Position numbers and translations under genes: made by a program
IMG/VR virus record: IMGVR_UViG_3300013137_002215
DNA length: 62,777 nt
Source: an uncultured virus (IMG/VR IMGVR_UViG_3300013137_002215)
Taxonomy: Duplodnaviria > Heunggongvirae > Uroviricota > Caudoviricetes
Strand: one strand, 5' to 3'
The notes under the pieces: generated by a model
What the model saw: the letters and a program-made list of their open reading frames with translations, nothing else
The model's database searches: none
What the model was told of the DNA's origin: nothing
Shown here: one piece after another, positions 15,630 through 62,632 of the stretch
Numbering within the stretch: position 1 is the stretch's first letter
Layout of the letters: each line of letters starts with the position of its first letter

Positions 15630-15631
15630 AT

Positions 15632-15712: not shown

Positions 15713-15750
15713 TACAAATCTCCATCAAACACAAATATCGTATACTTATC
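15694..15750. repeat. 57-bp direct repeat, copy 2
   Basis: matches 14911-14967. Confidence 0.95.
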
Positions 15751-15751
15751 T

Positions 15752-17083: not shown

Positions 17084-17087
17084 TTTG

Positions 17088-28851: not shown

Positions 28852-28970
28852 TTTAACTTCCTCCCATTAATCATTACGCATTAAATTAATTATTCTATAT
28901 TAATTTTTTATATCCTCTTTTATAATTTATTCTTTATTTTTACCCGTTTTCCTTTATAACTTGTTATTTT

Positions 28971-30200: not shown

Positions 30201-30254
30201 TATAGAACCTCCGAATTGTTTTTTATTTCATAAATATAAATTACGAATCCTCTA

Positions 30255-30665: not shown

Positions 30666-30676
30666 AATAATTCCCT

Positions 30677-32857: not shown

Positions 32858-32907
32858 AACAATTACCCTTTCTCAATATTTCAAATAAAATATGACAATT
32901 TCCTTTT

Positions 32908-35900: not shown

Positions 35901-37497
35901 CATCAAGCCTATGAAAAGTTAAAACCCTATCATTGTCAGCACCGGCATCTATTGTTTCAGGTTTTATCCATGCAGAAAAAGAAATGGGATAGTCTGCAGT
36001 AGGAATATAGACACTAGAAGGTCTTAAATCTATAAAATCTTGTGTTGCATTATCAAAATCCTGCGCCCATCCAGCAATTGCATCTGTTGTTCTTGCTGGA
36101 ACGTTTGATATACGACCTCCACCGCCACGACCATGATAGGCATTTGCAGTACTATCTTTAAATTCTCCCTCTGTTCCATTTCCACTTTCGGCTAAGTGAT
36201 ATACAGCCCTGTATGTACCTGCAGACCATACCGCCTTACCTGGAGTAGAAGTAATATCTCCGACATAAGTAATATTATCTGGTTTGGCGTTATCATAGTA
36301 CAAATATAAATAAGCAGCTTCATTGGCGGTCATTTCTTCTGCTACGTTTACCCATAACCATGCCTCAGAAGTAGCAGGTGTTCCAGTATAATTCCAACGT
36401 TCTATTTCTACAAATGTTTGTGTTTCACCATCACACAAGGTTACTGCAATTTTATATTTGTTATTTCCAATTTCAGAAAAAATACCAGTAATGTCTTTGT
36501 TATTAACTCCAGAAGAACCAGAAATGTGCACCAAAACAGGATAGTCTATAATTCTTTCTAATATTTTTGAGTTATCAACTTTAATTTCTATTCGTTTATT
36601 CCAACTATCAAGCCATCTATATCCACAATTTAAAGAAGAACTTGAACTTGTACTGCTGGAAGAAAAACTAGAACTACTCGTTGAACTAGAAGACATAGAA
36701 CTGCTTGTAGAACTAGAACTTACAGAAGAACTAGAAGAACTTGAAGAACTTGATGAACTGCTCCAGTTTTTTACATATGATGTGCTGGACGAACTACTTG
36801 TGGAACTACTCGTAGAACTACTTGATGTGGAACTTGAAGTACTAGAAGAACTGCTGCTGGACCACGTAGACGGTTTTAAGGCAATTTGATAACTTATATT
36901 CCTTGCAACCGTAGCAGAAGTTATATTACCCGTACCAGTAGCGGTACTTTCTGGGCGCAAAGCATAACCCATTGCTCCACTAATTGTTGTACTATAAGAT
37001 GCGTCAAAAGCTTCAAGCCACGTTGCAGGATTTGAGGTGGTAACACTATACCCACTATAAGTAGTATTAATTACTTTCATACCGGTCAATAAAATCATAC
37101 AATTAGCTTCAGGTCTGATTGTTGCTGGTGCTAAATTAGCCGAATTTTGTGTTTTAATACTACTTGCGCTTATTGGACCAGTAGGATTTTCTATTTCACA
37201 ATCTATCCATGCAGTTATCCAACCAATATTAGAAGATGAGGTTCCTGTAAAAGTAAAACTAACAGCAGCAACATCTGTAGAAGTAGCAATTTTATAAAAA
37301 GTTGCACTTCTAAAAGTATTACTTCCTTGCCGTATTTGTGTCCAACCAACAGGAGCAGTAATTACAGTTGTTGTGCTAGTAAACCCACAAACCGCAATCA
37401 TTAAGTCATTAACTGTTAGTCCTACAGGTTTTGTAATAACACAACTGGCAGACGTTGCGCCTGGACTAGAGCCTGTTGATCTAAACGATATTGCCAT
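32908..37497 (-). CDS. large virion/surface protein: DUF2341-like + LamG + poly-Ser + NHL
   Basis: WNKRIEI..DYPVLV, EIERW..AWLWV, YRAVYHL, FNGIIDEIRI; several hundred Ser residues; C-terminal NHL repeats. Confidence 0.8.
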   Translation of the reverse strand: MAISFRSTGSSPGATSASCVITKPVGLTVNDLMIAVCGFTSTTTVITAPVGWTQIRQGSNTFRSATFYKIATSTDVAAVSFTFTGTSSSNIGWITAWIDCEIENPTGPISASSIKTQNSANLAPATIRPEANCMILLTGMKVINTTYSGYSVTTSNPATWLEAFDASYSTTISGAMGYALRPESTATGTGNITSATVARNISYQIALKPSTWSSSSSSSTSSSTSSSSTSSSTSSSSSTSYVKNWSSSSSSSSSSSSSVSSSSTSSSMSSSSTSSSSFSSSSTSSSSSLNCGYRWLDSWNKRIEIKVDNSKILERIIDYPVLVHISGSSGVNNKDITGIFSEIGNNKYKIAVTLCDGETQTFVEIERWNYTGTPATSEAWLWVNVAEEMTANEAAYLYLYYDNAKPDNITYVGDITSTPGKAVWSAGTYRAVYHLAESGNGTEGEFKDSTANAYHGRGGGGRISNVPARTTDAIAGWAQDFDNATQDFIDLRPSSVYIPTADYPISFSAWIKPETIDAGADNDRVLTFHRLDAGGSSIALGVGSTNKVYVYNFSTPGDKALSNTIVSGTRYFITVVFDGTDYSFYFNGTYDSGYAGSLAAGSVYDVILGGNTGLTDNFNGIIDEIRIHVNAIGAAWIQADYYSGIDNLLYYGDEYDLSSSSSVSSSSSSSSSSKSSNSSTSSSSTSSSTSSSTSSSSSLMYSSSSSSSYSSSSSSSTSSSTSSSSSSTSSSTSSSTSSSSSSTSSSTSSSSSLMYSSSSSTSSSTSSSSSSTSSSSSTLSSLSSASSTSTSSSSSSSFGYSSSSSSTSSSSSTISSSSSISSSSSTSSSSSYEYSSSSISSSSSSSFSSSSSSSSSSSSMALSSSSSESSSSHSSSSSSSTSTSSSSSESIGGESTSSSSASSESIGNTSSSTSSSSSSSSSYGYSSSSSSSTSSSSHSSSSSSSSSTSSSSSSTSSSTSSSSSYGYSSSSSSSSTSSSTSSSSSSTSSSSSTLSSSSSTSSSTSSSSSYGYSSSSSSSTSSSSSYGYSSSSSSSTSSSSSSTSSSVSSSSSSKSSSSSSSSTSSFGFSSSSSTSLSSSHSSRSTSSKSSQSTSTSLSSSSTSSSTSSSSTSSSSSYVENWSSSSTSSSSSSSFGFSSSTSSTFSSSSSSFVLSKWNQLKKYGLSYISSEGNKGFLLAGKNQLYSINSADISGICIDKSGNIYVSDPVRHVILKVSASGEVRQWAGINGQSGNNGNNRVKASLARFNGPLGLTVDASGNLYVADTGNNQIRKITPDQYVTLIAGSITGASGFVGGVGKNARFNSPSDVAVDLSGNIFVADTNNHAIRYIMAGTSQVITVAGNGIAGDSYGVSTNAQLSSPFSICIDGSGKIFIFDTGNFKIKLLDRNFNVLRFSGSGTKGYYLGDATTSQYNYLLYSDVDRSGNLYVVDYDTVTQTRILRINQNGIPSLIKDYTGTEEGLYVVGVAVDNSGSIYVTESEVEVIFTSSSSSSSSSSSSSSSSYDDYNWIWENGDNVIWEDSNNALFDTVY

Positions 37498-39470: not shown

Positions 39471-40727
39471 TTATAAACGAGACAATTCTGGACATGCCAA
39501 AATCGTCTGATTTTCTGGTTTGTAACAGGAACCGTATTTTCCTGTAAGAAATCGCTGAACTATATTCAAGGCTGCATTTATGTCAGCATTGTCAGTATAA
39601 CCACAAGCCTGACACTTGAACACTTCACCATTACGATTTCTACTATCGGCTAAGTTACAGACTGGACATGTTATACTAGTATTATAAGGCAAAACTGTAC
39701 GAAAGGAAGTACGACTTTCTTCACACAGTTGTTCCAGCCTCATTAACCAGTAAGCATAATTCCAGCTACCGATAGAAGAACGAATATTTTTACTCAATCG
39801 TCCTTTGAGTTTTGAATTTGAGTTCAAATTACTAAGTTTCTCTACTACAACCAAATCCTTATCTTTAAGAACTTCTTTTGCTACTTCATTAATTCTTTGT
39901 TTAATAGTATTAATTGCTCTTTTCTTTCCCTTTGACCCTTTTTGACAGCGTTTAGATTTTTCAATTAGTTGTTTGATATCTGTTCCAAATTGTTCTTTTT
40001 CAGATGTTGAAGCTAAAGCATTAATTCCAGTATCAATTCCAATAATGTTTTTGACTTCTTTTTTAGGTCCAGTTTCTTTTTCAAAACCAAATTGAACATA
40101 ATCTTTAGTGATTATATAAGAATTAAGTCTTTGTGCTTTTTGTTGTAACTCTCTGTAGTGTTTATGGAATTTAATAGGAATATCAAGTGTTATCTTATTA
40201 CCAATAGAGGCTAAATGCAACCAAGCGTCAAATTCTTTAGTTTGTCTTTTAGGTTTCTGTAACTCTCCAATAGTACAAGAAACCGACATCTTTGTTCCTT
40301 TATGTTTTGGTTTATGTGGCTGAATCATTAATATCTTAGATTTGTTAGCTTTGAGTTTTTTATGCCAATTATTAATTTTTCTTCTGTTCTCTTTTGTATT
40401 TGGTTGGGTAATCTTAATCTTCTTTTCTAAAGCATCAATGGTATTTTGTATTTGTTCTTTGTTCCATTCAAAAACATTCTTAACTGAACTAACCATATCT
40501 ATTGCTTCTCTTGCTGCTACCTTTCTTAAACGAGCAGACAACCAAGTATCTTTAGGAATATCCACAATAGGTTTAAGCAATTGAGTCTTATCTACTTTCT
40601 TATCCCAAAAATAATCAATGAAGATATTAACTATTTTACCATACTCTTGAAGTATAGTTTGTAGTTCTATCTTCTTTTTATTTGTAGCGAATTTAACACT
40701 ACATTTACTTGACCTGATTATTTTCAT
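39471..40727 (-). CDS. tnpB: TnpB RNA-guided endonuclease
   Basis: RuvC GIDTG / VVEKL / NADINAA; Zn finger CPVC..CQAC. Confidence 0.92.
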   Translation of the reverse strand: MKIIRSSKCSVKFATNKKKIELQTILQEYGKIVNIFIDYFWDKKVDKTQLLKPIVDIPKDTWLSARLRKVAAREAIDMVSSVKNVFEWNKEQIQNTIDALEKKIKITQPNTKENRRKINNWHKKLKANKSKILMIQPHKPKHKGTKMSVSCTIGELQKPKRQTKEFDAWLHLASIGNKITLDIPIKFHKHYRELQQKAQRLNSYIITKDYVQFGFEKETGPKKEVKNIIGIDTGINALASTSEKEQFGTDIKQLIEKSKRCQKGSKGKKRAINTIKQRINEVAKEVLKDKDLVVVEKLSNLNSNSKLKGRLSKNIRSSIGSWNYAYWLMRLEQLCEESRTSFRTVLPYNTSITCPVCNLADSRNRNGEVFKCQACGYTDNADINAALNIVQRFLTGKYGSCYKPENQTILACPELSRL

Positions 40728-41110
40728 TATGTATCTAACAATATTACTTTGTCACTATCTTCATCATACATTTCTATTCTAACAATAGCATCCCTTATAT
40801 TACCAGAAAAGTAAAACTGTCCAATTTGTTCTTCTTCGTCTCCAATAACACTATGAAAATCTTGTTGCAAATTTCCCATTTTTCTCTGATCCAAAACAAT
40901 TGTTACTTGAGGTGAATTATCTATATTTGATTGTTTTTCGGCATAATGATTAGTTATATTTTCTTGATTGTCGCCAACATAAAGATTATTTACATTATAA
41001 TCATTCGATTTAATTTTTTCAAATTGTTTCAAAGAAGTTCCATGATATAATAATTTGAGGACATATTGCTCACACAATTTTTCAAACTTGCTTGTTTTGT
41101 AAATCTTCAT
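40727..41110 (-). CDS. cargo protein, possible ADP-ribosyltransferase-like fold
   Basis: MKIYKTSK start; LLYHGTS ... HYA pattern. Confidence 0.55.
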   Translation of the reverse strand: MKIYKTSKFEKLCEQYVLKLLYHGTSLKQFEKIKSNDYNVNNLYVGDNQENITNHYAEKQSNIDNSPQVTIVLDQRKMGNLQQDFHSVIGDEEEQIGQFYFSGNIRDAIVRIEMYDEDSDKVILLDT

Positions 41111-41714
41111 TTTTCTTTTTTCTCCTATCACCACTACGTTTCCCGTAAAATTTGCCACTAAAAGATGATATTAATGCCATAATATCTCTTGCAAATTCCT
41201 GTTCGTATGGCAAGTTTTCTCCATCGTCAACATATTCAATTTTAACATCAAAAGCTCCAAAGAATTCCTCAAAAACATTAAACTGAAATCTTGTCAGCCT
41301 GTCCTTGTGCTCAATAATAACTTTTGAAATCTGTTTTTCTACTACTAATTTGAATAATTTTTGTAATTTAGGTCTTGTTCCAGAAAGACCAGAACCAACA
41401 TCTTCTAATATATGTTCTACCTTATATCCTTGTTTTACACAATATTCTACCATTCTATTTCTTTGTCGTTCTAAATCGCCCTTTGCCTTCTGCTCATGAC
41501 TACTTACTCTAACATAAATGCAACATGGTCTATTTTTAATAGGTTTGGGATTATATTGACCTAAAAATTTCTCCACAACATCAGAATCATATCGTCTAGT
41601 TCCTTTAGTAACTCTAATAGACGGGAGCGTTCCATCTTCGTCCCATCTATGAAGAGTTTTATATGTTACACCTACTAAAGATGCAACTTCTTTAATTGTT
41701 AGAACTTTTTTCAT
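41082..41714 (-). CDS. tnpA: IS607 serine recombinase TnpA
   Basis: MerR-like HTH (TLHRWDEDG), YVRVSS..QK.DLERQ, EDVGSG, DRLTRF, SFSGKFYGKRS. Confidence 0.93.
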   Translation of the reverse strand: MKKVLTIKEVASLVGVTYKTLHRWDEDGTLPSIRVTKGTRRYDSDVVEKFLGQYNPKPIKNRPCCIYVRVSSHEQKAKGDLERQRNRMVEYCVKQGYKVEHILEDVGSGLSGTRPKLQKLFKLVVEKQISKVIIEHKDRLTRFQFNVFEEFFGAFDVKIEYVDDGENLPYEQEFARDIMALISSFSGKFYGKRSGDRRKKKNEDLQNKQV

Positions 41715-41919
41715 CAGTTTTAGTAAAATTCTTATTTCTACTCTGCATAACAAGAGTATCAACCAAAATTTTAGAATTAGCATATATCTCATTAAATTCT
41801 TTTAATGACAACGCTTCATCTAATTCAAATGGCAATGGATATATATCTCCATTATCCAATTCAAACTCTGTTTTAGTTACTCTTACAACTTTCATTCCTG
41901 TTACCTTTTTAGACTTCAT
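41692..41919 (-). CDS. small ORF upstream of tnpA inside IS607
   Basis: SD GGAGA; MKVVRVTKTEFELDNG; overlaps tnpA start. Confidence 0.6.
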   Translation of the reverse strand: MKSKKVTGMKVVRVTKTEFELDNGDIYPLPFELDEALSLKEFNEIYANSKILVDTLVMQSRNKNFTKTDEKSSNN

Positions 41920-42130: not shown

Positions 42131-42613
42131 TTAATCTTTACCGCGCATTAACAACCATTTTTCGTCGCCAATATTAACCAACGTCCATTTACCTTTATAT
42201 TTGCCAGTTAATACTTCAAATTTCCATTTTTTATTGTCTTTTTCTATTGTTTTATATTCGGACTTGGCATCTATTATTACTTTACCTGCGCCATAACCTT
42301 CTGGGAGAGTACCTTCAAAATTGGAATATGATAATGGATGTGATTCAACGGAAATTGCAAGATGTTTATTACCTTTTTCCGGCATTCCTTTTCTAACTGC
42401 CCAAGATTCTAACACCCCATTATTTTCTAATCTTAAATCGTAGTGAAGATGGGCTTTATGTGCATCGTGTTTTTGGACAACAAATATGGGGTTTTTTGTT
42501 TGTTTTATAGCGCCATTTTCAGGTTCTGGAGTTATATTAAAATCACGTTTCTCTTTGTATTCTTTAAGCGATTCTTTAGATTCTATATGGCGCTTTAGAT
42601 TAAATTGTGACAT
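42131..42613 (-). CDS. LigD 3'-phosphoesterase domain protein
   Basis: YKEKRDFNITPEP, FVVQKHDA..LHYDLRLE, SWAVRKG, GYGAG. Confidence 0.9.
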   Translation of the reverse strand: MSQFNLKRHIESKESLKEYKEKRDFNITPEPENGAIKQTKNPIFVVQKHDAHKAHLHYDLRLENNGVLESWAVRKGMPEKGNKHLAISVESHPLSYSNFEGTLPEGYGAGKVIIDAKSEYKTIEKDNKKWKFEVLTGKYKGKWTLVNIGDEKWLLMRGKD

Positions 42614-43263: not shown

Positions 43264-43379
43264 TAGTGGGGTAAATAGGAATCAAACCTACACTCGTTGG
43301 TTGCCTTTTTATTTGCTGAAAGTAACCTTTAAACAGATTCATTTTTATACCCACTGTGCTTCCGTTACACCACCGCCCC
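43264..43379 (-). ncRNA. tRNA-like RNA with a 49-nt anticodon loop
   Basis: acceptor GGGGCGG/TTACCCC, D arm GTGT/GCAC, T arm GTAGG TTTGATT CCTAT; loop 43301-43349. Confidence 0.6.
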
Positions 43380-43402: not shown

Positions 43403-43441
43403 AAAAACAAAAAACCCTTCCAGATTATCTCTGAAAGGGTT
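43403..43441 (-). terminator. attenuator terminator of tRNA operon 1
   Basis: AACCCTTTCAGA-GATAA-TCTGGAAGGGTT + TTTTGTTTTT. Confidence 0.85.
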
Positions 43442-43464
43442 AGCGATCCAAATTTTGGGTTAGA

Positions 43465-43533
43465 TTAGATCGTACCCCCTTCCAGATGTTCTTCTGGAAT
43501 CTCAATCATGGGGATATGAATTCTAATCGTCAT
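43465..43533 (-). CDS. leader peptide MTIRIHIPMIEIPEEHLEGGTI
   Basis: SD AAGGA and ATGA overlap with upstream ORF; Ile/His/Pro/Glu-rich; contains antiterminator TCTGGAAGGG. Confidence 0.8.
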   Translation of the reverse strand: MTIRIHIPMIEIPEEHLEGGTI

Positions 43534-43718
43534 ATTGTTTCCTTATTCTCCAAATTATTCTTAATTTCCTTTTTATTTCTTATAAAATAATGTGTTTCTC
43601 TGCATTTTGGCTTACATTTGTGACATTCTTTTCTATTAGAACTATGTGTAGAAAACTCCTTACCACATATCCTGCAATTAAGTCTTACCCTACCTGGAAA
43701 TTTAATCTTTTCTTTCAT
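43530..43718 (-). CDS. small Zn-finger protein
   Basis: CRICG...CHKCKPKC; SD AAAGGA. Confidence 0.6.
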   Translation of the reverse strand: MKEKIKFPGRVRLNCRICGKEFSTHSSNRKECHKCKPKCRETHYFIRNKKEIKNNLENKETI

Positions 43719-43745
43719 AGTTCCTTTCGCATCTTTGTAACACTT

Positions 43746-43774
43746 ATATTATACACACAAAAATCACATGTCAA
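43746..43774 (-). promoter_or_regulatory. sigma70-type promoter of tRNA operon 1
   Basis: TTGACA-17-TAATAT (overlapping TGTATAAT). Confidence 0.7.
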
Positions 43775-44716: not shown

Positions 44717-45253
44717 TTATTTTCCCATTTTATACCAAGGACGAGCATCATCAAATACCTTACTACGACTTATTGCTGTTTTTCTAGCTTGTATCATTAT
44801 TGCATTCTTTTCTTCCATGCCTAATCCTGCTTCAGCACCTAATATATACGCATCTACTATTTGAATAGCTACATCCTGTTTTTCTTTCCATTCAGGGTGA
44901 GTAGCAAACAGCATATCTATCCCACCAAGTAATGATAATGCACCAGCTTTACATAATGGACGATATTGCGCCTCTATCTTAGTATCAATAAATATAACCA
45001 AAGCAGGATAGATCGTTTCAGTATATGTAGAACCAGCCTGTACTTCGTCTGCCTTATCCTTAATTATACTTAGTAATAATTTAACACCGGCTATTTCTTC
45101 GGTTGTTGGATTATCCATAGCTATCCAACCCACAGCAGTAAACAATCCTGCATTCTGTGCTACCACTTTAATTTGTTCAGTTTGGCATCCGGTGAATAAT
45201 AACGTCGATAAACATAACACCCCAACTAACACACTACTTGCTAACTGTTTCAT
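44717..45253 (-). CDS. putative lipoprotein
   Basis: signal peptide ending LLFTGC. Confidence 0.65.
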   Translation of the reverse strand: MKQLASSVLVGVLCLSTLLFTGCQTEQIKVVAQNAGLFTAVGWIAMDNPTTEEIAGVKLLLSIIKDKADEVQAGSTYTETIYPALVIFIDTKIEAQYRPLCKAGALSLLGGIDMLFATHPEWKEKQDVAIQIVDAYILGAEAGLGMEEKNAIMIQARKTAISRSKVFDDARPWYKMGK

Positions 45254-45798
45254 TTGTATCCCCTTCCTTTTTTTTCTTGTTTTGTTTTAACCATTTTAAC
45301 CGTAATATTGCGTTCAGTTTTTTTCCTAGAAACCTCTTTTCCTGCCACACATAGACTTACAATACTATTAAATTTCTCTTCTGCCAAGTTAAAAAAGTTG
45401 ATTTGCCTTCCTCTTAAGTTCATTTCCACCAACACATCGTCGCCCTCATTTAAAAACTCATTAATTTGTTTGACCTTATAATCTATATCGTGTTGTGCAA
45501 TATCTGGAGTGAACTTCATTTCTTTTAAATGTCTTTTACCGTGTTTTTCGTTTTCTTTTTGTTTCTTATCCTGTTCATATTTCCATTTGCCATAATTCAT
45601 CATTTTACAAAGTGGCAACTTGTTATTATCGCCTTTATCAATACATACGAGATCTAATCCATTATCATGTGCTTCGTGCATTGCAGTATATAAATCCATA
45701 TCTTCTTTATAACCACCTGACACATCTATAAGTCTTATTTTCCTGCTTAAACGAGTATTATTGGTAATTATAAATGCTGAATTAGAACCGTTATTCAT
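45250..45798 (-). CDS. infC: translation initiation factor IF-3
   Basis: IRLID, GLDLV, PLCKMMNYGKWKYE, LKEMKF.P.IAQHD, FL.EGD.V..RGRQ. Confidence 0.9.
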   Translation of the reverse strand: MNNGSNSAFIITNNTRLSRKIRLIDVSGGYKEDMDLYTAMHEAHDNGLDLVCIDKGDNNKLPLCKMMNYGKWKYEQDKKQKENEKHGKRHLKEMKFTPDIAQHDIDYKVKQINEFLNEGDDVLVEMNLRGRQINFFNLAEEKFNSIVSLCVAGKEVSRKKTERNITVKMVKTKQEKKGRGYK

Positions 45799-46681: not shown

Positions 46682-47617
46682 TCAAAAATACCTTGATAAA
46701 TATAAACTACTAAATTCCGTGTCATATTCTTGCGCCTTAAACTCATCTGATTTATAATTATACATATAAATAATCTCGTTTCCACAAAAATAAACACATG
46801 CGCCTAAAGACAAACTAAATATAACATTATTTTTCTCTACAGACGGACTTTCTTTAAAAGTATTGCCATCTAAAAATATATTGCGCATCATGCATTTCCC
46901 ATCAACACTTGTAAAAACATAACTATAAAACTTCTTTTTTTCTCTGGTTGTTGGTTCCATATGATACGTCCCAAAATCATCGGGCAGTCTATATCCGATT
47001 CTAAAAGTAGAACCGCAATTCAAATAATCATATATGTTCCCAACACACGCACCATAATTAGGAATAATATCATAGTAATCTTTTTTTATCTTATATTTCT
47101 TTTGGTAAATTAAATCTGCTCCAAGCTCGTCACGTATTTGATATTTCCAACCATTAGGATGTTGTGCGCCAAATTGTTTATGCATCCATATTTGCGTTTC
47201 ATCAGAATAAGAAGATTTACCTGTTGTTCCGATATCCAACTCCCAAAAATCCAATTCTTTACTATCATAAGCTATTAAGGAATATCCTCCATATAGCCAA
47301 CCACCATAAGGACGATCTTCAGGTAGAAATTCCGTCGCTTTTAAATCTGAAGGGGTATACATATATTGTGCAACCGAATAGCCACTTTGACTATTTTTGT
47401 TTGGATATAAGTTTTCAAACCATTTATATGATCCCTCTTTAACATATAAAATTCTGGTGCCATGAGTATAATACCTGTCATGATAATATAAAATATCGTT
47501 TTCAAAAGAAACATTTACCATGTTTGCCGAACCAGCAGCAGTCAAAAACATCAATAAAAACAAAATATAAAAAACTATCATAATTATTCTATTCATCACA
47601 ATCGCGCTATCTATCAT
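46682..47617 (-). CDS. lpxR: lipid A deacylase LpxR family (DUF2219) beta-barrel
   Basis: signal peptide, FEND..DRYYTHG, QYMYTPSD, DRPYGGWLY, GWKYQI, NIFLDGN, terminal F. Confidence 0.82.
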   Translation of the reverse strand: MIDSAIVMNRIIMIVFYILFLLMFLTAAGSANMVNVSFENDILYYHDRYYTHGTRILYVKEGSYKWFENLYPNKNSQSGYSVAQYMYTPSDLKATEFLPEDRPYGGWLYGGYSLIAYDSKELDFWELDIGTTGKSSYSDETQIWMHKQFGAQHPNGWKYQIRDELGADLIYQKKYKIKKDYYDIIPNYGACVGNIYDYLNCGSTFRIGYRLPDDFGTYHMEPTTREKKKFYSYVFTSVDGKCMMRNIFLDGNTFKESPSVEKNNVIFSLSLGACVYFCGNEIIYMYNYKSDEFKAQEYDTEFSSLYLSRYF

Positions 47618-48252: not shown

Positions 48253-49062
48253 TCACTTTATTCTATTAGTGAGTATATTTTTATCTATATTTTTAATCAA
48301 AGAAGTTTCAACCATATTCTTTTTATCTTCTATTGTGCTCATTCCTTCAGGTGTTTTTATCCATTTTAAAAATCCATCATAATTCTTCGCAAATACTACG
48401 TCGTCTTTCTTATCATAAGCAACCAATCTCATACACATGTCATAAACTCGCGTATTAAAATCAGGAATATGATCTAGTGCTCCATCTACGCTATGCAACA
48501 AATAAACAAAACGAGATACACATTCGGCACTGAAACCATTTAAACTTGGAATTCCGTTAAAATTCTTAAGCGCCACACTCCATTGCTTATTGCGTTTGGA
48601 CCATTCTTTTTCATTAATAAAATCGGGTTTAATTTCTTTTTCCCAATAAATATATGGTTCTACAAACTTAGTATCGTCCATAAAAATATTAGCAATATCG
48701 CTGTGTTCAGTATATAAAATACCAAAGACTTTATTTTTAACAGGTATAACCATGATAGTACAGGCAAAATCTATATTGGGGTCTCTTATTCCTGTTGCCC
48801 ACAATGTACCAACTCGTAATGATATAATTTCTGTTGCACAACTATAAGGACTAACACCAGCAGGAATTGTATGATCTAATCCAACAGTATATAAATCTAA
48901 AACATTAGTGGCGACATAAGCAAAAGCACCATAAACCTTTTCAAGTATAATAGGATGTATTCTTAATCTGAATTTATTAATTTTATTATGTATTGTGTTT
49001 AAATTGGGCGTCTTAAATATGAAGCCAGTATCTATCTTTGGGAGCATAACAATATTATACAA
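48253..49062 (-). CDS. hypothetical protein
   Basis: ORF; true start likely MLPKID just after TGTATAAT. Confidence 0.65.
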   Translation of the reverse strand: MYNIVMLPKIDTGFIFKTPNLNTIHNKINKFRLRIHPIILEKVYGAFAYVATNVLDLYTVGLDHTIPAGVSPYSCATEIISLRVGTLWATGIRDPNIDFACTIMVIPVKNKVFGILYTEHSDIANIFMDDTKFVEPYIYWEKEIKPDFINEKEWSKRNKQWSVALKNFNGIPSLNGFSAECVSRFVYLLHSVDGALDHIPDFNTRVYDMCMRLVAYDKKDDVVFAKNYDGFLKWIKTPEGMSTIEDKKNMVETSLIKNIDKNILTNRIK

Positions 49063-49083
49063 ATAATTTTAACAGTATCAAGT

Positions 49084-49853: not shown

Positions 49854-50279
49854 TTAACGAATAACTGTTGAACGTCTTATTTTCGCAAACTCATCAATAT
49901 GACCAACCTCATCTGTTAAAATATCCTCTATAAGCTGTTGTGTAGCACGATCCTTAGATTGTTCACATAAATCTAAAATCTGTGAATATAAATCAATAGC
50001 ACCTTGTTCACCTATTATATCTTGCTTTAGAGCTTCATCAATATCTTCAGTATAATTTGCCACTTTTTCTGTATCAATAGTAGGCGTTCCACCCATTATA
50101 TAAATTCTAGCAACAAGTCTATTGGCATGATCTTGTTCGTCACCCATATGCTCTTTAAAATGATCAATAACATCGGTATTTTTACTTCTTACGTTATTAT
50201 AGTGTTGAAGATATTGCATTGAAGCGTGATATTCATCTGCCAATGCTTTATTTAATAGTGTTATTAGTTGTTCGTTCAT
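49854..50279 (-). CDS. ferritin-like (bacterioferritin/DPS-like) protein
   Basis: LADEYHA..QY, DEQDHA, GEQGAI..Y, DEVGH di-iron motifs; SD GGAGGAG. Confidence 0.85.
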   Translation of the reverse strand: MNEQLITLLNKALADEYHASMQYLQHYNNVRSKNTDVIDHFKEHMGDEQDHANRLVARIYIMGGTPTIDTEKVANYTEDIDEALKQDIIGEQGAIDLYSQILDLCEQSKDRATQQLIEDILTDEVGHIDEFAKIRRSTVIR

Positions 50280-50344
50280 AATTATCTCCTCCCTCAACCC
50301 AAAAATAGACACTATTATATTTCACTAAAATAATCCAAAGTCCT

Positions 50345-52374: not shown

Positions 52375-53733
52375 AAACGTGAGCAGAAACCCCGACATCT
52401 TTAGTGTCGGGGAGGTAAGCGAATTACTTAACCCGCTTCCTTCCACTTCTCCTTTGCTATTTATTATACCTAAAATATTTTAAGATTCAAGCAGGATTTT
52501 TCTTAAAAATATAGAATAACATAATTATGAACATATTAACATATAATATTAAATTAGAGTTTCAGAATCAAAAAGACAAAGATTCTCTGATTGATTTACT
52601 ATTAGAACATCAAAAAGTATGGAACTATATGTCAGAATATGTTTTTAAATCCAAAAAGGTAGATAAAAAGTTAATTCACGATAAAAACTATAAGAAATGC
52701 AGAAAACTGTTCCCAAATTGTCCTTCCCAAGTAGTTATCAGAGCAAAAGATTCGGTCTACGCTACCTATAGAACAATTCAGTCTAACAAACATAAATTAG
52801 AAGAATCCGCTAAACAAGAAAATCTATCAATAAGATTAGATAAGAGAATTTATACTTTTCTTCCAGATAATAAAATTAAACTAACAACCACTGGGAAAAG
52901 AATAACCTGCTCCTATACTCCTTATGACAAATTCAGAGATATGTTCTCTAAATATTCTGTTTGTGACCCATTACTTTTTGTTAGAAATAATGAAGTTTGG
53001 CTTTCGGTATCATTTGAAGTTTCAACCCCTACCCTTATAGAAGGTAGTTGTATCGGAGTGGATTTAGGCATAAAAAGATTAGCAACTACCTCTGAGGGAT
53101 TAACAATTACAGATAAGAAGTTCCTTAAAGAAAAAAGACAAATAAGACATCTAAAGAGTATATTAAAATCAAAAAGCAAAACTACTTTTTCCCGTTCTGC
53201 CCAAAGAAAACTAAAAAAACTAAAAAGAAAAGAGCATAACAAAAACAAGAACCAATCACATCTTATTGCTAACAAAATATTAGAAACCAAATCTAATGTT
53301 ATTGTTATGGAAGATTTGACTAAAATAAAGTCAGAAAATAAGGGAAAGAGATTTAATAATAGACAATCTCAAGTTCCCTATTTTGAGTTAAGAAAAATAC
53401 TAACCTACAAGGCACCATTATTAGGCAAAATAGTGGTAACGGTTGACCCTGCCTATACTTCTAAGAACGATTATAGAGGCATAGAAAAAGGCAAAAGACA
53501 GGGATGTAGGTATTACACAAGCGATAACAATGTTTTTGATGCTGATTGGAATGCGGCTATAAACATTGCTAATCGTTACGCCATGAGAAAGAAAGTTAAG
53601 GGCGTAGAACTCCCTGTTTCGTTTAATATACCTATTGATGGTAGATTAAACCTAATAGGCAAGCCATATCAACTGGCTAATTGTGAGATAAGGTCTTGCA
53701 AACCCAATGATCTTCAGTCATTAGGTAGTTGAT
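52375..53733 (+). mobile_element. IS200/IS605-type tnpB-only element
   Basis: left hairpin CCCCGACA-TCTTTAG-TGTCGGGG (52390-52412); right hairpin ACCCAATGA..TCATTAGGT followed by AGTTGAT; left boundary approximate. Confidence 0.8.
52527..53732 (+). CDS. tnpB: TnpB/Cas12f-like nuclease lacking the C-terminal Zn finger
   Basis: GVDLG, VMEDL, DPAYTS, DADWNAAINIA; no CxxC pairs. Confidence 0.88.
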   Translation: MNILTYNIKLEFQNQKDKDSLIDLLLEHQKVWNYMSEYVFKSKKVDKKLIHDKNYKKCRKLFPNCPSQVVIRAKDSVYATYRTIQSNKHKLEESAKQENLSIRLDKRIYTFLPDNKIKLTTTGKRITCSYTPYDKFRDMFSKYSVCDPLLFVRNNEVWLSVSFEVSTPTLIEGSCIGVDLGIKRLATTSEGLTITDKKFLKEKRQIRHLKSILKSKSKTTFSRSAQRKLKKLKRKEHNKNKNQSHLIANKILETKSNVIVMEDLTKIKSENKGKRFNNRQSQVPYFELRKILTYKAPLLGKIVVTVDPAYTSKNDYRGIEKGKRQGCRYYTSDNNVFDADWNAAINIANRYAMRKKVKGVELPVSFNIPIDGRLNLIGKPYQLANCEIRSCKPNDLQSLGS

Positions 53734-54895: not shown

Positions 54896-54993
54896 GGCTG
54901 GAGAGACAGGCTTCGCTCCTGCACACACACCCGATTAGAGGTGTCATGATCGGCTTAACAGGCCGACCCCTTGCTAGTTAGGGCAACTCTCCA
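54896..54993 (-). tRNA. tRNA-Asn(GUU), atypical (27-nt variable region, T-loop AGCGAAG)
   Basis: TGGAGAG/CTCTCCA, G73; TCGGC-CT GTT AA-GCCGA. Confidence 0.75.
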
Positions 54994-55000: not shown

Positions 55001-55071
55001 TTGTCTCGTCGGGACTTGAACCCAAACTAGGACCTCCAAAGGGTCCGGTGCTGCCATTACACTACGAGACA
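55001..55071 (-). tRNA. tRNA-Gln(UUG)
   Basis: GGACC-CT TTG GA-GGTCC; U1-A72. Confidence 0.9.
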
Positions 55072-55538
55072 TTATTTTTCTTTTTTAATATCTCCCTTAA
55101 TCTCATCAATCTCCCACAAAATTCGCTTCTTGTCAATATTGTTTCTTTAGAATTTGATCTACCAATATTGTGTGTTAAAACCGCATCTCCACTTGCTAAT
55201 AAAGCCCTCCTAAAAGAGTCAGATTGTTCCATTAATGCCATATAAGCCCTATCTAACAATATTTGGTATTCATCGCTCTGCCTATCAATTTCTTTATCTT
55301 CCCAATATAATGTTTGTGTTTTCCACCATTTCTTTTCTTTACCTGATTTTTTAGCACTATATCCAACAAGTTTGCATATCTCTTTTTGCATTTCTGGATT
55401 TTTAAATTTTAAACTCTGCAAAAATCCCTCCATACTATTAATAGGAATTTCATCAAAAACAAAAGGGTGTGGTGCAAAATTTGATAATGCACTTGACGGA
55501 TAACCATGTTTTGATCCTATATCCATTTTTACCTCCAT
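55062..55538 (-). CDS. T4 Gp30.3-like NADAR family protein
   Basis: YPSSALSNFAPHPF, SMEGFLQSLKF, QTLYW, LTHNIG, TILT..EF. Confidence 0.8.
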   Translation of the reverse strand: MEVKMDIGSKHGYPSSALSNFAPHPFVFDEIPINSMEGFLQSLKFKNPEMQKEICKLVGYSAKKSGKEKKWWKTQTLYWEDKEIDRQSDEYQILLDRAYMALMEQSDSFRRALLASGDAVLTHNIGRSNSKETILTRSEFCGRLMRLREILKKKNNVS

Positions 55539-55553
55539 ACTTATTAATAATAT

Positions 55554-55597
55554 AAATAAAAAGCCCCCTTCAAGATATTTTATCCTAAAGAGGGCAA
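55554..55597 (-). terminator. attenuator terminator of tRNA operon 2
   Basis: GCCCTCTTTAGGATA...TATCTTGAAGGGGGC + TTTTTATTT. Confidence 0.8.
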
Positions 55598-55613
55598 GAT
55601 AGTAGAATAACTA

Positions 55614-55667
55614 TCAGTGCCCTTTCAGGCATTGATTATTTTGGTTATTCTGTTGATTCATTTTCAT
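55614..55667 (-). CDS. leader peptide MKMNQQNNQNNQCLKGH
   Basis: nine consecutive Asn/Gln codons; antiterminator CCTGAAAGGGCA. Confidence 0.85.
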   Translation of the reverse strand: MKMNQQNNQNNQCLKGH

Positions 55668-55673
55668 ACTATT

Positions 55674-55701
55674 AATATACACAAATTTTATTGTTTGTCA
55701 A
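55674..55701 (-). promoter_or_regulatory. sigma70-type promoter of tRNA operon 2
   Basis: TTGACA-16-TATATT with TG; ATG 6 nt downstream. Confidence 0.7.
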
Positions 55702-55711
55702 CTTATTATTG

Positions 55712-56515
55712 CTAATTTTTATTTTTTCCTTTATTTCTCTTAAACTCATCGTGTCTTTTTTCTATCCATTCCAATAATTCTTTATCCTTAATATTTATTT
55801 CATTTAACATATCATATAAAGTTGATTTGTAAGGATAATCACACATTATTTTCATGGCGTCTATTTTTTTAGAAGACTCGATAAAATAAATACAAAAAAG
55901 AACCCAATTACGAACCATCTTATAATTCTTAGTGCCTTCTGCAACACGAATTTCAACAGTCTTTCTCTTTTTGTTTTTAATATAATCAACAATACTGAAA
56001 CTTATAGCACTATGATGATCTTCTGTTGAATTTAGTGCATCTTTAAAGAAACTTGCGGTATTCTTTTTACTTCCTTTGCTTTTTATGCTTCTTTCACAAT
56101 AAAAACAATTTCTTCTACGTAATGGAAATAAAGAGAATATCACAGGTTCATATTTAAGCCATAATGCCAATACTTTTTCTTTATCTATACCGGCAATATC
56201 TAAATGAACATGCAAAGAATCCTTATCTGTTATTTTTATATCATTTCTATCTATTTCTTTAATAACGTCGCATATTTTATCCATTTGTTTTAAAGTAGAA
56301 ATTGGCGTACATAATTCGCTTTCTGTTGTAGCATCGGTTTTTAAGTTCCATTTGATATTATTAATTGATTGATAGGCTTCTTCTTTACAATATAAACTAT
56401 TATTACCAAAGTATTTATGTATTATTTTAGATATAATTGGCTTAATTTGATCATATCTCGTAGAAAACTCAAATTCACAACCAAACTTCCTAGAAAAGAA
56501 TATTTTGGGGAACAT
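55712..56515 (-). CDS. putative amidoligase (COOH-NH2 ligase type 2)
   Basis: FGCEFEF, ELCTP, SLHVHL, TVEIR. Confidence 0.8.
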   Translation of the reverse strand: MFPKIFFSRKFGCEFEFSTRYDQIKPIISKIIHKYFGNNSLYCKEEAYQSINNIKWNLKTDATTESELCTPISTLKQMDKICDVIKEIDRNDIKITDKDSLHVHLDIAGIDKEKVLALWLKYEPVIFSLFPLRRRNCFYCERSIKSKGSKKNTASFFKDALNSTEDHHSAISFSIVDYIKNKKRKTVEIRVAEGTKNYKMVRNWVLFCIYFIESSKKIDAMKIMCDYPYKSTLYDMLNEINIKDKELLEWIEKRHDEFKRNKGKNKN

Positions 56516-57360: not shown

Positions 57361-57387
57361 ATCACTAATATTAATTTATCAAAGAAC

Positions 57388-57424
57388 AAAAAAAAGCCCG
57401 TATCACTTGTCTGATACGGGCTTT
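57388..57424 (-). terminator. attenuator terminator of tRNA operon 3
   Basis: AAAGCCCGTATCA-GACAAG-TGATACGGGCTTT + T tract. Confidence 0.9.
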
Positions 57425-57444
57425 CCTTTTCTATGTCCCATTAG

Positions 57445-57516
57445 CTAGACAAAATGGGACAAAAGAATGCCCGTATAAGGCATCCTATCCCAACGATCTT
57501 GTCTTAGCGATATCAT
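57445..57516 (-). CDS. leader peptide MISLRQDRWDRMPYTGILLSHFV
   Basis: SD GAGGTG; AGA CAA GAT CGT TGG GAT AGG ATG; antiterminator ATACGGGC. Confidence 0.82.
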   Translation of the reverse strand: MISLRQDRWDRMPYTGILLSHFV

Positions 57517-57545
57517 TCTTAATACACCTCTATATCTTTGTTCTA

Positions 57546-57574
57546 AGATTATATAACTTTATCCTGCCTGTCAA
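57546..57574 (-). promoter_or_regulatory. sigma70-type promoter of tRNA operon 3
   Basis: TTGACA-17-TAATCT (or 15-TATAAT). Confidence 0.7.
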
Positions 57575-62154: not shown

Positions 62155-62185
62155 ACCTAGGATTATAGCTGTATTTAATAATTCG

Positions 62186-62632
62186 TCAATTTTTTTCTAT
62201 TTTTGACAAATATTTTTGAATAGCTTCGTCAATTGAATTAACTATTTCGGCATTATCCAAACAGCCCAATGTCCATGAAGGAATATTTTTCTCTTTAATC
62301 TTGTCAATAAACACCATAATATTTTTACTCAGCCACGCTGCCGTAGAAATTTCTGAAAGAGTCCCTGCGCCATCAAATACAGCTTTATCCACCTTAACAA
62401 AAAAATATTGAGAAGTGGCAACATTAACCATATCGGGCATTATAAATTTTTCTTTCATCCATGTTTTGAATTCGGGATCTGTTTTCTCAAATGGACAACT
62501 ACTAGAAGCTTTATCGGGAATTATGACATTATAATATTTATGAAGTTCTTTATACATTTTGTTGCGCCAAGAATATGGACTCTTAGAATATTCGATACTG
62601 CCGGAAAGATAAATTGACGGCTTTGAATGCAT
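62186..62632 (-). CDS. nucleoside 2-deoxyribosyltransferase-like protein
   Basis: IYLSGSIE..WR, GAGTLSEI. Confidence 0.7.
   Translation of the reverse strand: MHSKPSIYLSGSIEYSKSPYSWRNKMYKELHKYYNVIIPDKASSSCPFEKTDPEFKTWMKEKFIMPDMVNVATSQYFFVKVDKAVFDGAGTLSEISTAAWLSKNIMVFIDKIKEKNIPSWTLGCLDNAEIVNSIDEAIQKYLSKIEKN

What the first reader, a model, noticed from the sequence alone, without database searches (positions are those of the whole stretch)
55554..55701. Attenuator 2: nine consecutive Asn/Gln codons before tRNA-Gln and tRNA-Asn
The leader MKMNQQNNQNNQCLKGH contains AAT CAA CAG AAT AAC CAA AAT AAT CAA and is probably leaderless (ATG 6 nt after the -10). CCTGAAAGGGCA can pair with the terminator 5' arm TGCCCTCTTTAGG, and a GATAG/CTATC hairpin sits at the stop. 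The only tRNAs downstream are Gln(UUG) and Asn(GUU). Asn and Gln are also the pair charged by GatCAB transamidation in many bacteria, so this may additionally sense nitrogen status (inference).
Basis: partly seen in the sequence, partly recalled or inferred. Interest (0 to 1): 0.9.

Follow-up and report, generated by a model that had tools for sequence, protein, structure and literature searches.

The report
Codon-matched attenuator gating phage tRNA genes
A lake phage puts a tiny test gene made of nine asparagine/glutamine codons, wired to a switchable transcription stop, in front of its own glutamine and asparagine tRNA genes, so it probably makes these tRNAs only when ribosomes read those codons slowly, a trp-operon-style control that I could not find described for tRNA genes.

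Summary
A strong sigma-70-like promoter is followed by a 17-codon ORF (MKMNQQNNQNNQCLKGH), an antiterminator, an intrinsic terminator, an AdfN/gp30.3-like gene, tRNA-Gln(UUG) and tRNA-Asn(GUU).

The nine-codon Asn/Gln run is unique among 845 small ORFs of the window; the next best run is 3. Ribosome-position folding shows a -23.6 kcal/mol antiterminator. It stays intact while the A site is on codons 2-9 and is gone at the stop codon.

The other two tRNA clusters of the window have the same design with their own codon sets:
- DRWDRM before Arg, Asp, Arg, Trp and Met.
- An I/H/P/E-rich leader before His, Ile, Glu and Pro.

A 476-kb IMG/VR phage is a distant relative (helicase 46% identical). It carries a QQNNQNNQ leader 5 nt before Gln/Asn tRNAs, and codon-matched leaders before five or six more clusters. 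The true leader-to-cluster pairing is the unique best of 720 permutations.

Best reading: a leader-peptide transcription attenuator that supplies phage tRNAs on demand. There are no expression data. Eight literature searches found no published case. Earlier notes of this scan report the same design in other phages. The GatCAB/nitrogen idea is untested.

The parts
55696..55701 (-). -35 hexamer TTGACA of the attenuator promoter
   Evidence: 11 of 12 match with a 16-nt spacer. It is one of 10 sites with at least 11 of 12 on the coding strand of the window.
55674..55679 (-). -10 hexamer TATATT; the leader ATG begins 6 nt downstream (leaderless geometry)
   Evidence: The same geometry occurs at promoters 62189 (ATG 62154, 232-aa ORF) and 49081 (ATG 49047, in frame with a 269-aa ORF).
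55614..55667 (-). Leader ORF, 17 codons plus TGA: MKMNQQNNQNNQCLKGH
55632..55658 (-). Regulatory run, codons 4-12: AAT CAA CAG AAT AAC CAA AAT AAT CAA (5 Asn, 4 Gln)
   Evidence: a run of 9; the next best among 845 background small ORFs is 3. The shared core QQNNQNNQ recurs in the relative's leader with 3 synonymous and 0 non-synonymous differences.
55618..55629 (-). Antiterminator 5' strand CCTGAAAGGGCA (codons 13-17 of the leader)
   Evidence: it pairs with 55596-55584 when the ribosome A site is on codons 2-9. In untranslated RNA it folds back on itself inside a hairpin whose outer arm is CAG AAT AAC.
55598..55615 (-). Small hairpin GATAGT/ACTATC that overlaps the stop codon and forms the top tier of the antiterminator
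   Evidence: Att1, Att3 and the relative's leaders have an equivalent hairpin across or just after the stop.
55584..55596 (-). Antiterminator 3' strand, which is also the terminator 5' arm (TGCCCTCTTTAGG)
55553..55595 (-). Intrinsic terminator: hairpin 55595-55563 (15 pairs, -20.5 kcal/mol) plus U tract 55562-55553
55062..55526 (-). AdfN/gp30.3-like (NADAR) gene, first gene behind the terminator. SD GGAGGT is at 55536-55531. Its stop codon lies inside the 5' end of tRNA-Gln.
   Evidence: Pfam PF08010, E 2.6e-54; phrog_652. Searches show the overlap with the tRNA; passages of bioRxiv 10.1101/2024.07.11.602962 name T4 gp30.3 AdfN, an anti-DarT1 ADP-ribosylglycohydrolase.
55001..55071 (-). tRNA-Gln(UUG), U1-A72, A73
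   Evidence: ARAGORN; Rfam, 56.3 bits.
54896..54993 (-). tRNA-Asn(GUU), 98 nt, with a long variable arm and the atypical T loop AGCGAAG
   Evidence: ARAGORN. Rfam 33.6 bits in a local search; the whole-window run missed it. Similar long-arm tRNA-Asn genes occur in G001 and L007.
57387..57574 (-). Sister attenuator Att1. TTGACA-15-TATAAT promoter, SD, and leader 57516-57445 (MISLRQDRWDRMPYTGILLSHFV), whose codons GAT CGT TGG GAT AGG ATG match the five tRNAs behind it (Arg-ACG, Asp-GUC, Arg-CCU, Trp-CCA, Met-CAU). Terminator at 57429-57388.
43405..43533 (-). Sister attenuator Att3. Leader 43533-43465 (MTIRIHIPMIEIPEEHLEGGTI) and terminator 43440-43414, ahead of an odd 113-nt tRNA-like gene and tRNAs His, Ile, Glu and Pro. 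The leader start overlaps the stop (ATGA) of a Cys-rich 62-codon ORF driven by a 12 of 12 promoter at 43774-43748.

Best explanation
This is a ribosome-mediated (leader-peptide) transcription attenuator of an uncultured lake phage.

Proposed steps:
1. Transcription starts at or next to the A of the leader AUG, and a ribosome translates the 17-codon leader.
2. If Asn-tRNA(GUU) and Gln-tRNA(UUG) are plentiful, the ribosome runs to the stop codon and covers CCUGAAAGGGCA and the small hairpin. The terminator forms, and transcription ends before the AdfN-like gene.
3. If decoding of AAU/AAC/CAA/CAG is slow, the ribosome waits on codons 4-9. The two-tier antiterminator then sequesters the terminator 5' arm. 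RNA polymerase reads through into the AdfN-like gene, tRNA-Gln, tRNA-Asn and the small ORFs behind them.
4. The new phage tRNAs speed up decoding and close the switch again (negative feedback).
5. Without any translation, the regulatory codons pair with the region downstream and termination prevails.

Shown from sequence and computation: the parts, their order, the codon match, the alternative structures and their register, and recurrence in the window and in a relative.

Inferred: translation of the leader, the start site, the switching itself, and what makes decoding slow. Candidates for the last are codon demand of an AT-rich phage, host tRNA-targeting defence, or starvation.
For: Anatomy.

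Codon match:
- The run of 9 Asn/Gln codons is unique among 845 background ORFs.
- The two tRNAs behind it read exactly these codons.

Structures:
- The antiterminator is -23.6 kcal/mol against -9.2 +/- 2.5 in 300 dinucleotide shuffles, 0 of 300 as stable.
- With the A site on codons 2-9, 73-76% of the terminator 5' arm is sequestered. This falls to 49, 33 and 20% on codons 10-12 and to 3% on codon 13.
- Untranslated RNA keeps the terminator.

No alternative route to the tRNAs:
- The AdfN-like stop codon lies inside tRNA-Gln.
- No promoter-like site with at least 9 of 12 lies on that strand between 55563 and 55071.

Sister elements in the window:
- All 3 tRNA clusters have the same design, each with its own codon set.
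- In the codon-level match matrix the diagonal is 6, 9 and 13, and off-diagonal values are 2 or less.
- Their promoters are the only two 12 of 12 matches on the coding strand.

Relative:
- Only 1 of 10 IMG/VR matches to the QQNNQNNQ pattern lies in a short ORF, and only that one is followed by tRNAs (Gln, Asn, Asn, Gln), 5 nt after a terminator.
- That 476-kb contig shares a helicase 46% identical over 780 aa.
- A fixed rule found 6 attenuator candidates there. The true leader-to-cluster assignment is the unique best of 720 permutations.
- The same ribosome-position geometry holds for the 5 leaders whose output I could read.

Control: 0 of 11 other IMG/VR tRNA loci showed a codon-matched leader.
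Against: - There are no expression data. No RNA run holds the sequence, so translation, start site and switching are untested.
- The leader has no Shine-Dalgarno sequence. It depends on leaderless initiation, or on poor internal initiation in transcripts that read through from the amidoligase gene.
- Stalls on the last three of the nine codons would already melt part of the antiterminator.
- At equilibrium the full-length RNA always prefers the terminator, P about 0.98. The switch must therefore be kinetic, as in classical attenuators.
- The share of the 5' arm paired upstream is only moderately unusual: 20 of 300 shuffles reach it.
- The first gene behind the terminator is a protein gene whose known relatives act on ADP-ribosylated DNA, not on translation.
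- Asn and Gln codons are common in 30% GC DNA.
- The host is unknown.
Confidence: 0.78

Rival explanations
1. The attenuator is real but senses amino-acid or nitrogen status (charging of tRNA-Asn and tRNA-Gln, possibly through the GatCAB route) rather than tRNA supply.
For: - Asn and Gln are the two amide amino acids.
- Both phage tRNAs have U1-A72.
- A glutamine-synthetase-like amidoligase gene lies directly upstream, and an Asn-synthase-like gene lies at 15752-17083.
- Any attenuator reads charged tRNA, so starvation would also open it.
Against: - More tRNA does not relieve an amino-acid shortage.
- The other two attenuators of the window and the six in the relative sense unrelated sets (Arg/Asp/Trp/Met, Thr/Lys, Val/Ala/Ile, Ser/Leu/Cys/Tyr and others) that always equal the tRNAs behind them. 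The common denominator is therefore tRNA identity, not nitrogen.
Confidence: 0.08
2. The roughly 110-nt transcript from promoter to terminator is a small RNA, or a leader that is not translated (protein- or tRNA-binding, T-box-like). The ORF is incidental.
For: - The promoter is followed by a terminator within about 110 nt.
- The region is strongly structured, z = -5.9.
- There is no Shine-Dalgarno sequence before the ATG.
Against: - No Rfam family reaches its threshold. The best is leu-phe_leader at 21.2 bits against 70, and there is no T-box match.
- The QQNNQNNQ core is kept at the peptide level in the relative, with 3 synonymous and 0 non-synonymous changes, while the flanks differ.
- Nine or ten leaders in two phages track the amino acids of their tRNA clusters. 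Only a translated reading frame explains this.
Confidence: 0.06
3. This is an ordinary terminator closing the upstream amidoligase operon, next to a chance promoter-like site and a chance low-complexity ORF in AT-rich DNA.
For: - The terminator would also stop transcripts coming from the amidoligase gene, which ends at 55712.
- Promoter-like sites are no more frequent than in shuffles: 19 against 24.6 +/- 5.3.
- Asn and Gln codons are common at 30% GC.
Against: - The run of 9 compares with a next best of 3 among 845 ORFs.
- The antiterminator is more stable than all 300 shuffles.
- The order promoter, ORF, terminator is repeated at all 3 tRNA clusters with matching codons, and at six clusters of a relative.
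- The three other strong terminators on this strand (44698, 37602, 27556) sit at gene ends without such a matching leader.
Confidence: 0.04

Closest known systems
Leader-peptide transcription attenuators of enterobacterial amino-acid operons (trpL, hisL, leuL, pheL; multivalent thrL and ilvL). Recalled from textbook knowledge, not from a call.
   Same: A short translated leader with a run of regulatory codons, an intrinsic terminator and an overlapping antiterminator. A ribosome stalled on hungry codons favours read-through, and a ribosome at the stop codon favours termination. Sensing two amino acids at once is as in thr (Thr and Ile) and ilv.
   Different: - The genes behind the switch are tRNA genes (plus a NADAR gene), not biosynthetic enzymes.
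- The owner is a phage.
- The loop closes through tRNA supply, not amino-acid synthesis.
- The leader is probably leaderless mRNA.
- No Rfam leader family matches.
pheM leader attenuator of the E. coli pheST (phenylalanyl-tRNA synthetase) operon (recalled)
   Same: Leader-peptide attenuation that controls a component of the translation apparatus according to decoding of the cognate codons.
   Different: It controls a synthetase, not tRNA genes. It is a single-amino-acid sensor and is cellular, not viral.
T-box riboswitches (Rfam RF00230)
   Same: A terminator/antiterminator switch that reports on a specific tRNA and controls genes of the same amino-acid system.
   Different: T-boxes bind uncharged tRNA directly and need no translation. 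No T-box match exists here, and the specificity is written in an ORF.
Codon-matched leader attenuators before tRNA arrays noted earlier in this scan in other phages (AI notes e1-5355742, e1-5886956, e1-5675546, e1-2978539 and others)
   Same: The same design and logic. One note describes a QQQNNQNNQ leader before Asn, Gln and Asn tRNAs.
   Different: - These are different genomes. No look-alike of this window is in the index.
- Here a protein gene (AdfN-like) sits between the terminator and the tRNAs, and the leader seems leaderless.
- The notes are unpublished and mostly unchecked.

Membership tests
Leader-peptide (ribosome-mediated) transcription attenuators | Short ORF with a usable start upstream of the regulated genes | tested here: inconclusive
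   A 17-codon ATG ORF is present. It has no Shine-Dalgarno sequence. The ATG lies 6 nt after the -10, and two other top promoters have the same geometry ahead of long ORFs. Translation itself is not shown.
Leader-peptide (ribosome-mediated) transcription attenuators | Cluster of regulatory codons for the sensed amino acid(s) | tested here: met
   Nine consecutive Asn/Gln codons. The run is unique among 845 background ORFs, where the next best is 3.
Leader-peptide (ribosome-mediated) transcription attenuators | Intrinsic terminator between the leader and the regulated genes | tested here: met
   A 15-pair hairpin plus U tract at 55595-55553.
Leader-peptide (ribosome-mediated) transcription attenuators | Antiterminator that excludes the terminator, placed so that a ribosome on the regulatory codons allows it and a ribosome at the stop prevents it | tested here: met
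   the antiterminator (-23.6 kcal/mol) is intact with the A site on codons 2-9, is lost by codon 13 and is absent at the stop; 0 of 300 shuffles are as stable.
Leader-peptide (ribosome-mediated) transcription attenuators | Regulated genes belong to the system of the sensed amino acid(s) | tested here: met
   The only tRNAs behind it are Gln(UUG) and Asn(GUU), co-transcribed with the AdfN-like gene. The link runs through tRNA genes, not biosynthetic genes.
Leader-peptide (ribosome-mediated) transcription attenuators | Read-through responds to the supply of charged cognate tRNA | not testable with these tools
   No RNA run holds the sequence. An experiment is needed.
Curated Rfam leader families (His_leader, Trp_leader, Thr_leader, Leu_leader, leu-phe_leader and others) | Covariance-model score at or above the gathering threshold | tested here: not met
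   The best match is leu-phe_leader at 21.2 bits against 70. Only tRNAs pass in the whole window. The element works like these leaders but is not a member of any curated family.
T-box riboswitch | Stem I with specifier loop and T-box sequence (Rfam RF00230) | tested here: not met
   No match at E up to 10 in 55530-55720.
AdfN / phage gp30.3 NADAR (Pfam PF08010), for the first downstream gene | Full-length match to the family profile | tested here: met
   PF08010, E 2.6e-54, profile positions 1-138 of 138. Catalytic residues and activity were not examined, and there is no solved relative by sequence.

The most novel reading that the evidence does not exclude
The codon-matched leaders are alarm sensors for host attacks on specific tRNAs, such as anticodon or acceptor-stem nucleases. 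When host tRNA-Gln and tRNA-Asn are cut, ribosomes stall on the leader. The phage then fires a counter-defence operon that delivers replacement tRNAs, among them an oddly shaped long-arm tRNA-Asn that may escape the nuclease. The same operon delivers a NADAR enzyme that strips ADP-ribose marks.

A natural tRNase that cuts just tRNA-Gln and tRNA-Asn (and also Trp and fMet) is known: CdiA-CT of EC869 (passages of PMC9071432). The Att3 operon of this window ends with a LigD-type 3'-phosphoesterase gene that could heal cut RNA ends.
Probability: 0.2. Interest if true: 0.92.

Novelty: new variant of a known kind. Interest (0 to 1): 0.84.

Why it matters
Phage tRNA genes are usually treated as constitutive helpers for codon usage or as spare parts against tRNA-cleaving defences. 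A switch that transcribes each tRNA block only when ribosomes decode exactly those codons slowly would mean three things:
- Phages measure decoding capacity codon by codon and correct it by feedback.
- It would extend classical attenuation, known for amino-acid and synthetase genes, to tRNA genes and to viruses.
- It would explain why giant-phage tRNAs are split into small blocks.

It also offers compact, re-programmable codon-specific sensors: nine or ten natural variants with different specificities were seen in just two genomes. The idea is directly testable with reporters or coupled in-vitro systems. Placing an anti-DarT-type NADAR gene behind the same switch hints at a link between translation stress and counter-defence.

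Tried and rejected
Search for close relatives, to test covariation. None kept tRNAs nearby.
- AdfN-like protein in IMG/VR: 4 loci at 55-66% identity, 0 tRNAs.
- Amidoligase in IMG/VR: none. In JGI metagenomes: 10 loci at 27-39% identity, 0 tRNAs.
- ThyX: 4 loci at 45-54% identity, 0 tRNAs.
- LigD_N protein: none.
- Helicase in IMG/VR: none.
- GenBank phages: blastn found only 4-12% coverage, and tblastn of the helicase at most 30% identity.
- Exact-peptide pattern including the ATG: 0 hits.
- Five other contigs reached by handles lack the helicase.

tRNA-Asn anticodon-arm pattern: 11 loci, none with a matched leader. I used them as controls.

Expression: no RNA holder is listed. Laying four lake-water DNA runs gave identical pieces and no variation inside the attenuators.

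Alignment of the three window attenuators shows no recognisable sequence homology, 57% mean column identity in AT-rich DNA.

ARAGORN with the intron option did not call the 113-nt tRNA-like gene, so its anticodon stays unknown. I therefore could not test whether it explains the AGA or ATG codons in the Att3 leader.

Equilibrium folding of the full transcript always keeps the terminator. I judged the switch on the truncated, ribosome-masked transcript instead.

The first version of the masking model let RNA behind the ribosome pair, which gave muddled output for Att1. I replaced it.

In the relative, the terminator I picked for the Glu/Pro leader (tandem terminators) gave an uninformative profile. 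Four of its ten fetched regions, with isolated tRNAs, have no attenuator by my rule.

No whole genome is held for the window. The scan index has no notes on this genome and no look-alike.

GatCAB/nitrogen idea: considered and not supported (see rivals).
Full report
**What is there.** The feature lies on the minus strand. In the 5' to 3' direction it reads as follows.
- A promoter: TTGACA (55701-55696), 16 nt, then TATATT (55679-55674). This is the best promoter-like site in the 4.5 kb scanned, 11 of 12.
- Six nucleotides later, an ATG (55667) opens a 17-codon ORF, MKMNQQNNQNNQCLKGH, with stop TGA at 55616-55614. Codons 4-12 are AAT CAA CAG AAT AAC CAA AAT AAT CAA.
- Eighteen nucleotides after the stop, a 15-pair hairpin (55595-55563) is followed by TTTTTATTTA. 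I computed -20.5 kcal/mol for it.
- The 126-nt region folds far better than shuffles: z = -5.9, and 0 of 200 shuffles fold as well.

**What lies behind it.**
- An ORF with SD GGAGGT and probable start at 55526 matches Pfam PF08010 (phage gp30.3) over the whole profile, E 2.6e-54.
- Passages of the preprint 10.1101/2024.07.11.602962 rename T4 gp30.3 AdfN. It is a NADAR ADP-ribosylglycohydrolase that counters the DarTG1 defence.
- The ORF's stop codon lies inside the first bases of tRNA-Gln(UUG) at 55071-55001. tRNA-Asn(GUU) follows 7 nt later, at 54993-54896.
- No terminator, and no promoter-like site with at least 9 of 12, lies on this strand between the attenuator terminator and the tRNAs. 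The tRNAs can therefore be reached only by reading through the terminator.
- The tRNA-Asn is unusual. It is 98 nt long, with a long variable arm and T loop AGCGAAG. ARAGORN calls it, and Rfam gives 33.6 bits in a local search but missed it in the whole-window run.

**More than chance.**
- Asn and Gln codons make up 8.9% of all six-frame codons of this 30% GC window.
- Among 845 ATG ORFs of 10-40 codons on both strands, only this ORF and its nested start reach a run of 9. The next best run is 3.

**The switch.** I masked everything up to 12 nt past the first base of the A-site codon. I then folded the transcript made before the terminator 3' arm appears.
- With the A site on codons 2-9, the free RNA forms a two-tier hairpin of -23.6 kcal/mol. 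CCUGAAAGGGCA (55629-55618) pairs with UGCCCUCUUUAGG (55596-55584) around the GAUAGU/ACUAUC hairpin. This sequesters 73-76% of the terminator 5' arm.
- On codons 10, 11, 12 and 13 the share falls to 49, 33, 20 and 3%.
- At the stop codon only -3.2 kcal/mol of structure is left.
- The antiterminator is more stable than all 300 dinucleotide shuffles of the same stretch (-9.2 +/- 2.5). The share-paired measure is less distinctive: 20 of 300 shuffles reach it.
- Untranslated RNA folds CAG AAU AAC against GUUAUUC and keeps the terminator. This corresponds to the 1:2 state of classical attenuators.
- At equilibrium the terminator always wins, P about 0.98. The decision has to be kinetic, as in the trp leader (recalled).

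**Leaderless start.**
- There is no Shine-Dalgarno sequence.
- Of the 10 sites with at least 11 of 12 promoter matches on the coding strand, three place an ATG 6-7 nt after the -10. One is this leader. The others are site 62189 (ATG 62154, the start of a 232-aa ORF) and site 49081 (ATG 49047, in frame with a 269-aa ORF).
- This makes leaderless initiation a habit of this phage. No start site is mapped, however.

**Sister elements in the window.** All three tRNA clusters have the same design.

| Element | Leader peptide | tRNAs behind it |
|---|---|---|
| Att1 | MISLRQDRWDRMPYTGILLSHFV (57516-57445) | Arg(ACG), Asp(GUC), Arg(CCU), Trp(CCA), Met(CAU) |
| Att2 (this finding) | MKMNQQNNQNNQCLKGH (55667-55614) | Gln(UUG), Asn(GUU) |
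| Att3 | MTIRIHIPMIEIPEEHLEGGTI (43533-43465) | an odd 113-nt tRNA-like gene, then His, Ile, Glu, Pro |

- In Att1 the codons GAT CGT TGG GAT AGG ATG are exactly the codons of its five tRNAs.
- In the codon-level match matrix the diagonal is 6, 9 and 13, and off-diagonal values are 2 or less. The true pairing is the best of the 6 possible.
- Each leader is the top of the 845 background ORFs for its own codon set.
- Each shows the same ribosome-position behaviour, with antiterminators of -31.6, -23.6 and -24.7 kcal/mol.
- The promoters of Att1 and Att3 are the only two 12 of 12 matches on the coding strand.
- The three sequences are not recognisably homologous.

**A relative.** Most searches for relatives failed (see the section Tried and rejected).
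- Ten stretches matched. Nine lie in open frames of 76 or more codons with no tRNA on that strand.
- The tenth, L037, lies in a 476-kb contig. It is a 24-codon ORF, MSVQVQQNNQNNQALEGFGRLFSA, behind a TTGAAA-16-TATAAT promoter.
- That ORF is followed by a terminator and, 5 nt later, by tRNAs Gln, Asn, Asn, an insert-bearing tRNA and Gln.
- Its eight core codons differ from ours at three synonymous positions and at no non-synonymous one.
- The contig (handle G001) encodes a helicase 46% identical over 780 aa to that of the window. GenBank phages reach at most 30%. It has no AdfN homologue.

**Other clusters of the relative.** Rfam finds 60 tRNAs in G001, and I fetched ten regions around them. 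I applied one fixed rule: terminators of -14 kcal/mol or better, all ATG ORFs of 8-50 codons ending next to them, and the best candidate taken for every pairing. This gives six attenuator candidates. The true leader-to-cluster assignment is the unique best of 720 permutations.

| Leader core | tRNAs behind it |
|---|---|
| TTKTTKTTKTTKK | Thr x3, Lys x2 |
| VEIAIAVVAVAVVA | Val, Ala, Ala, Val, Ile |
| REPEREEPP | Glu/Pro x3 |
| VVRDMHIIRRDW... | Arg x4, Trp, Ile x2, Val, Asp x2, Met |
| SLSLSLCSSYLSL | Cys x2, Tyr x2, Leu, Ser |

- A seventh, weaker case (IFRFF before two tRNA-Phe) appeared with looser settings.
- With my hand-picked ORFs the result was 1 of 5040. The fixed-rule figure is the fair one.
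- Four of the ten regions, holding isolated tRNAs, have no attenuator.
- Ribosome-position folding gives the same picture for the Gln/Asn, Thr/Lys, Val/Ala/Ile, Arg-rich and Ser/Leu leaders. The Glu/Pro profile was uninformative, and part of the output was cut.
- His and Ile tRNAs sit in the Glu/Pro block in our phage and in the Arg/Trp block in G001. In each phage, His and Ile codons appear in the leader of the block that holds those tRNAs.
- As a control, 0 of 11 other IMG/VR loci with tRNAs showed a matched leader.

**Mechanism and what it may sense.** The best-supported reading is supply on demand. Slow decoding of Asn/Gln codons opens the terminator, the phage tRNAs are made, decoding speeds up and the switch closes.
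- The phage uses AAT at 56 and CAA at 18 per thousand codons. Codon demand alone could therefore drive the switch.
- Host tRNA-targeting defence is an attractive alternative. A natural tRNase cuts just tRNA-Gln and tRNA-Asn, plus Trp and fMet (passages of PMC9071432).
- The operon also carries a counter-defence-type NADAR gene.
- The Att3 operon ends with a LigD-type 3'-phosphoesterase gene.
- None of these causes is tested.
- The GatCAB/nitrogen idea explains neither the other nine leaders nor why more tRNA would help.

**Comparison with what is known.** The element works like the trp, his, thr and ilv leaders, and like the pheM leader of pheST (recalled). It belongs to no curated family. Rfam's best is leu-phe_leader at 21.2 bits against 70, and there is no T-box match.

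Eight full-text searches combined phage, tRNA genes or arrays, leader peptide, attenuation, antitermination and ribosome stalling (and 48 for AdfN). I saw only listings and abstracts. None returned a paper describing attenuation of tRNA genes. Subscription journals are not covered.

Earlier AI notes of this scan report the same design in at least a dozen other phage genomes. They are unpublished and mostly unchecked, and none concerns this genome.

**Verdict.** The attenuator reading is supported by statistics, structure and recurrence within the window, and independently by a distant relative. Experiments are lacking. It is a new variant of a known kind of control, of high interest.

Noticed in passing
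window 57387-57574 (-) and 43405-43774 (-): Two further codon-matched attenuators. DRWDRM precedes tRNAs Arg, Asp, Arg, Trp and Met. An I/H/P/E-rich leader precedes His, Ile, Glu and Pro. The second leader is translationally coupled (ATGA overlap) to a Cys-rich 62-codon ORF.
   Followed up: yes
window 54896-54993 (-); L037 2286-2378; L007 2959-3045: tRNA-Asn(GUU) genes with a long, class-II-like variable arm occur in three different phages. The one in the window also has the atypical T loop AGCGAAG.
   Followed up: partly
window 43267-43379 (-); G001 195772-195896, 198200-198316, 282509-282626, 315933-316051: tRNA-like genes of 113-125 nt carry about 40-50 extra bases in the anticodon loop region. 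Rfam gives 29.9 bits in the window, and ARAGORN does not call it even with the intron option. The anticodon is unknown, and this may be a small intron.
   Followed up: partly
window 42131-42613 (-): A LigD-type 3'-phosphoesterase domain protein (PF13298, E 1.4e-25) lies directly after the last tRNA of the Att3 cluster. It could be an RNA-end healing enzyme.
   Followed up: no
window 45250-45798 (-): A phage-encoded translation initiation factor IF3, with both domains (E 1e-16 and 1e-15). This is of interest given the apparent use of leaderless mRNAs.
   Followed up: no
window 62162-62189 and 49054-49081 (-): Strong promoters with an ATG 6-7 nt after the -10, heading ORFs of 232 and about 264 aa. 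These are probably leaderless mRNAs.
   Followed up: partly
window 561-20216 (-): A block of about 20 kb holds glycosyltransferase, sulfotransferase, methyltransferase, NeuB, cytidylyltransferase and Asn-synthase-like genes. This is a large glycan-modification cluster for a phage.
   Followed up: no
window 39471-41792 (-) and 52527-53732 (+): An IS607-like pair (MerR-serine recombinase plus TnpB-like transposase) and a second TnpB-like gene on the opposite strand. Diverged copies of the second are present in the lake metagenome contigs.
   Followed up: no
window 46682-47617, 49854-50312, 27574-37497 (-): LpxR-like lipid A deacylase (E 3e-78, which suggests a Gram-negative host), a ferritin-like protein, and three NHL-repeat proteins, one of them 1529 aa long.
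   Followed up: no
L049 (G001 409000-411500), minus strand: The 476-kb relative encodes a tRNA with anticodon CTA, which ARAGORN calls 'Pyl'. This is a possible amber suppressor.
   Followed up: no
window 55712-56515 (-): An Amidoligase_2 (glutamine-synthetase-like) gene lies directly upstream of the Asn/Gln attenuator. Its best relatives in metagenomes are 39% identical and have no tRNAs nearby.
   Followed up: partly
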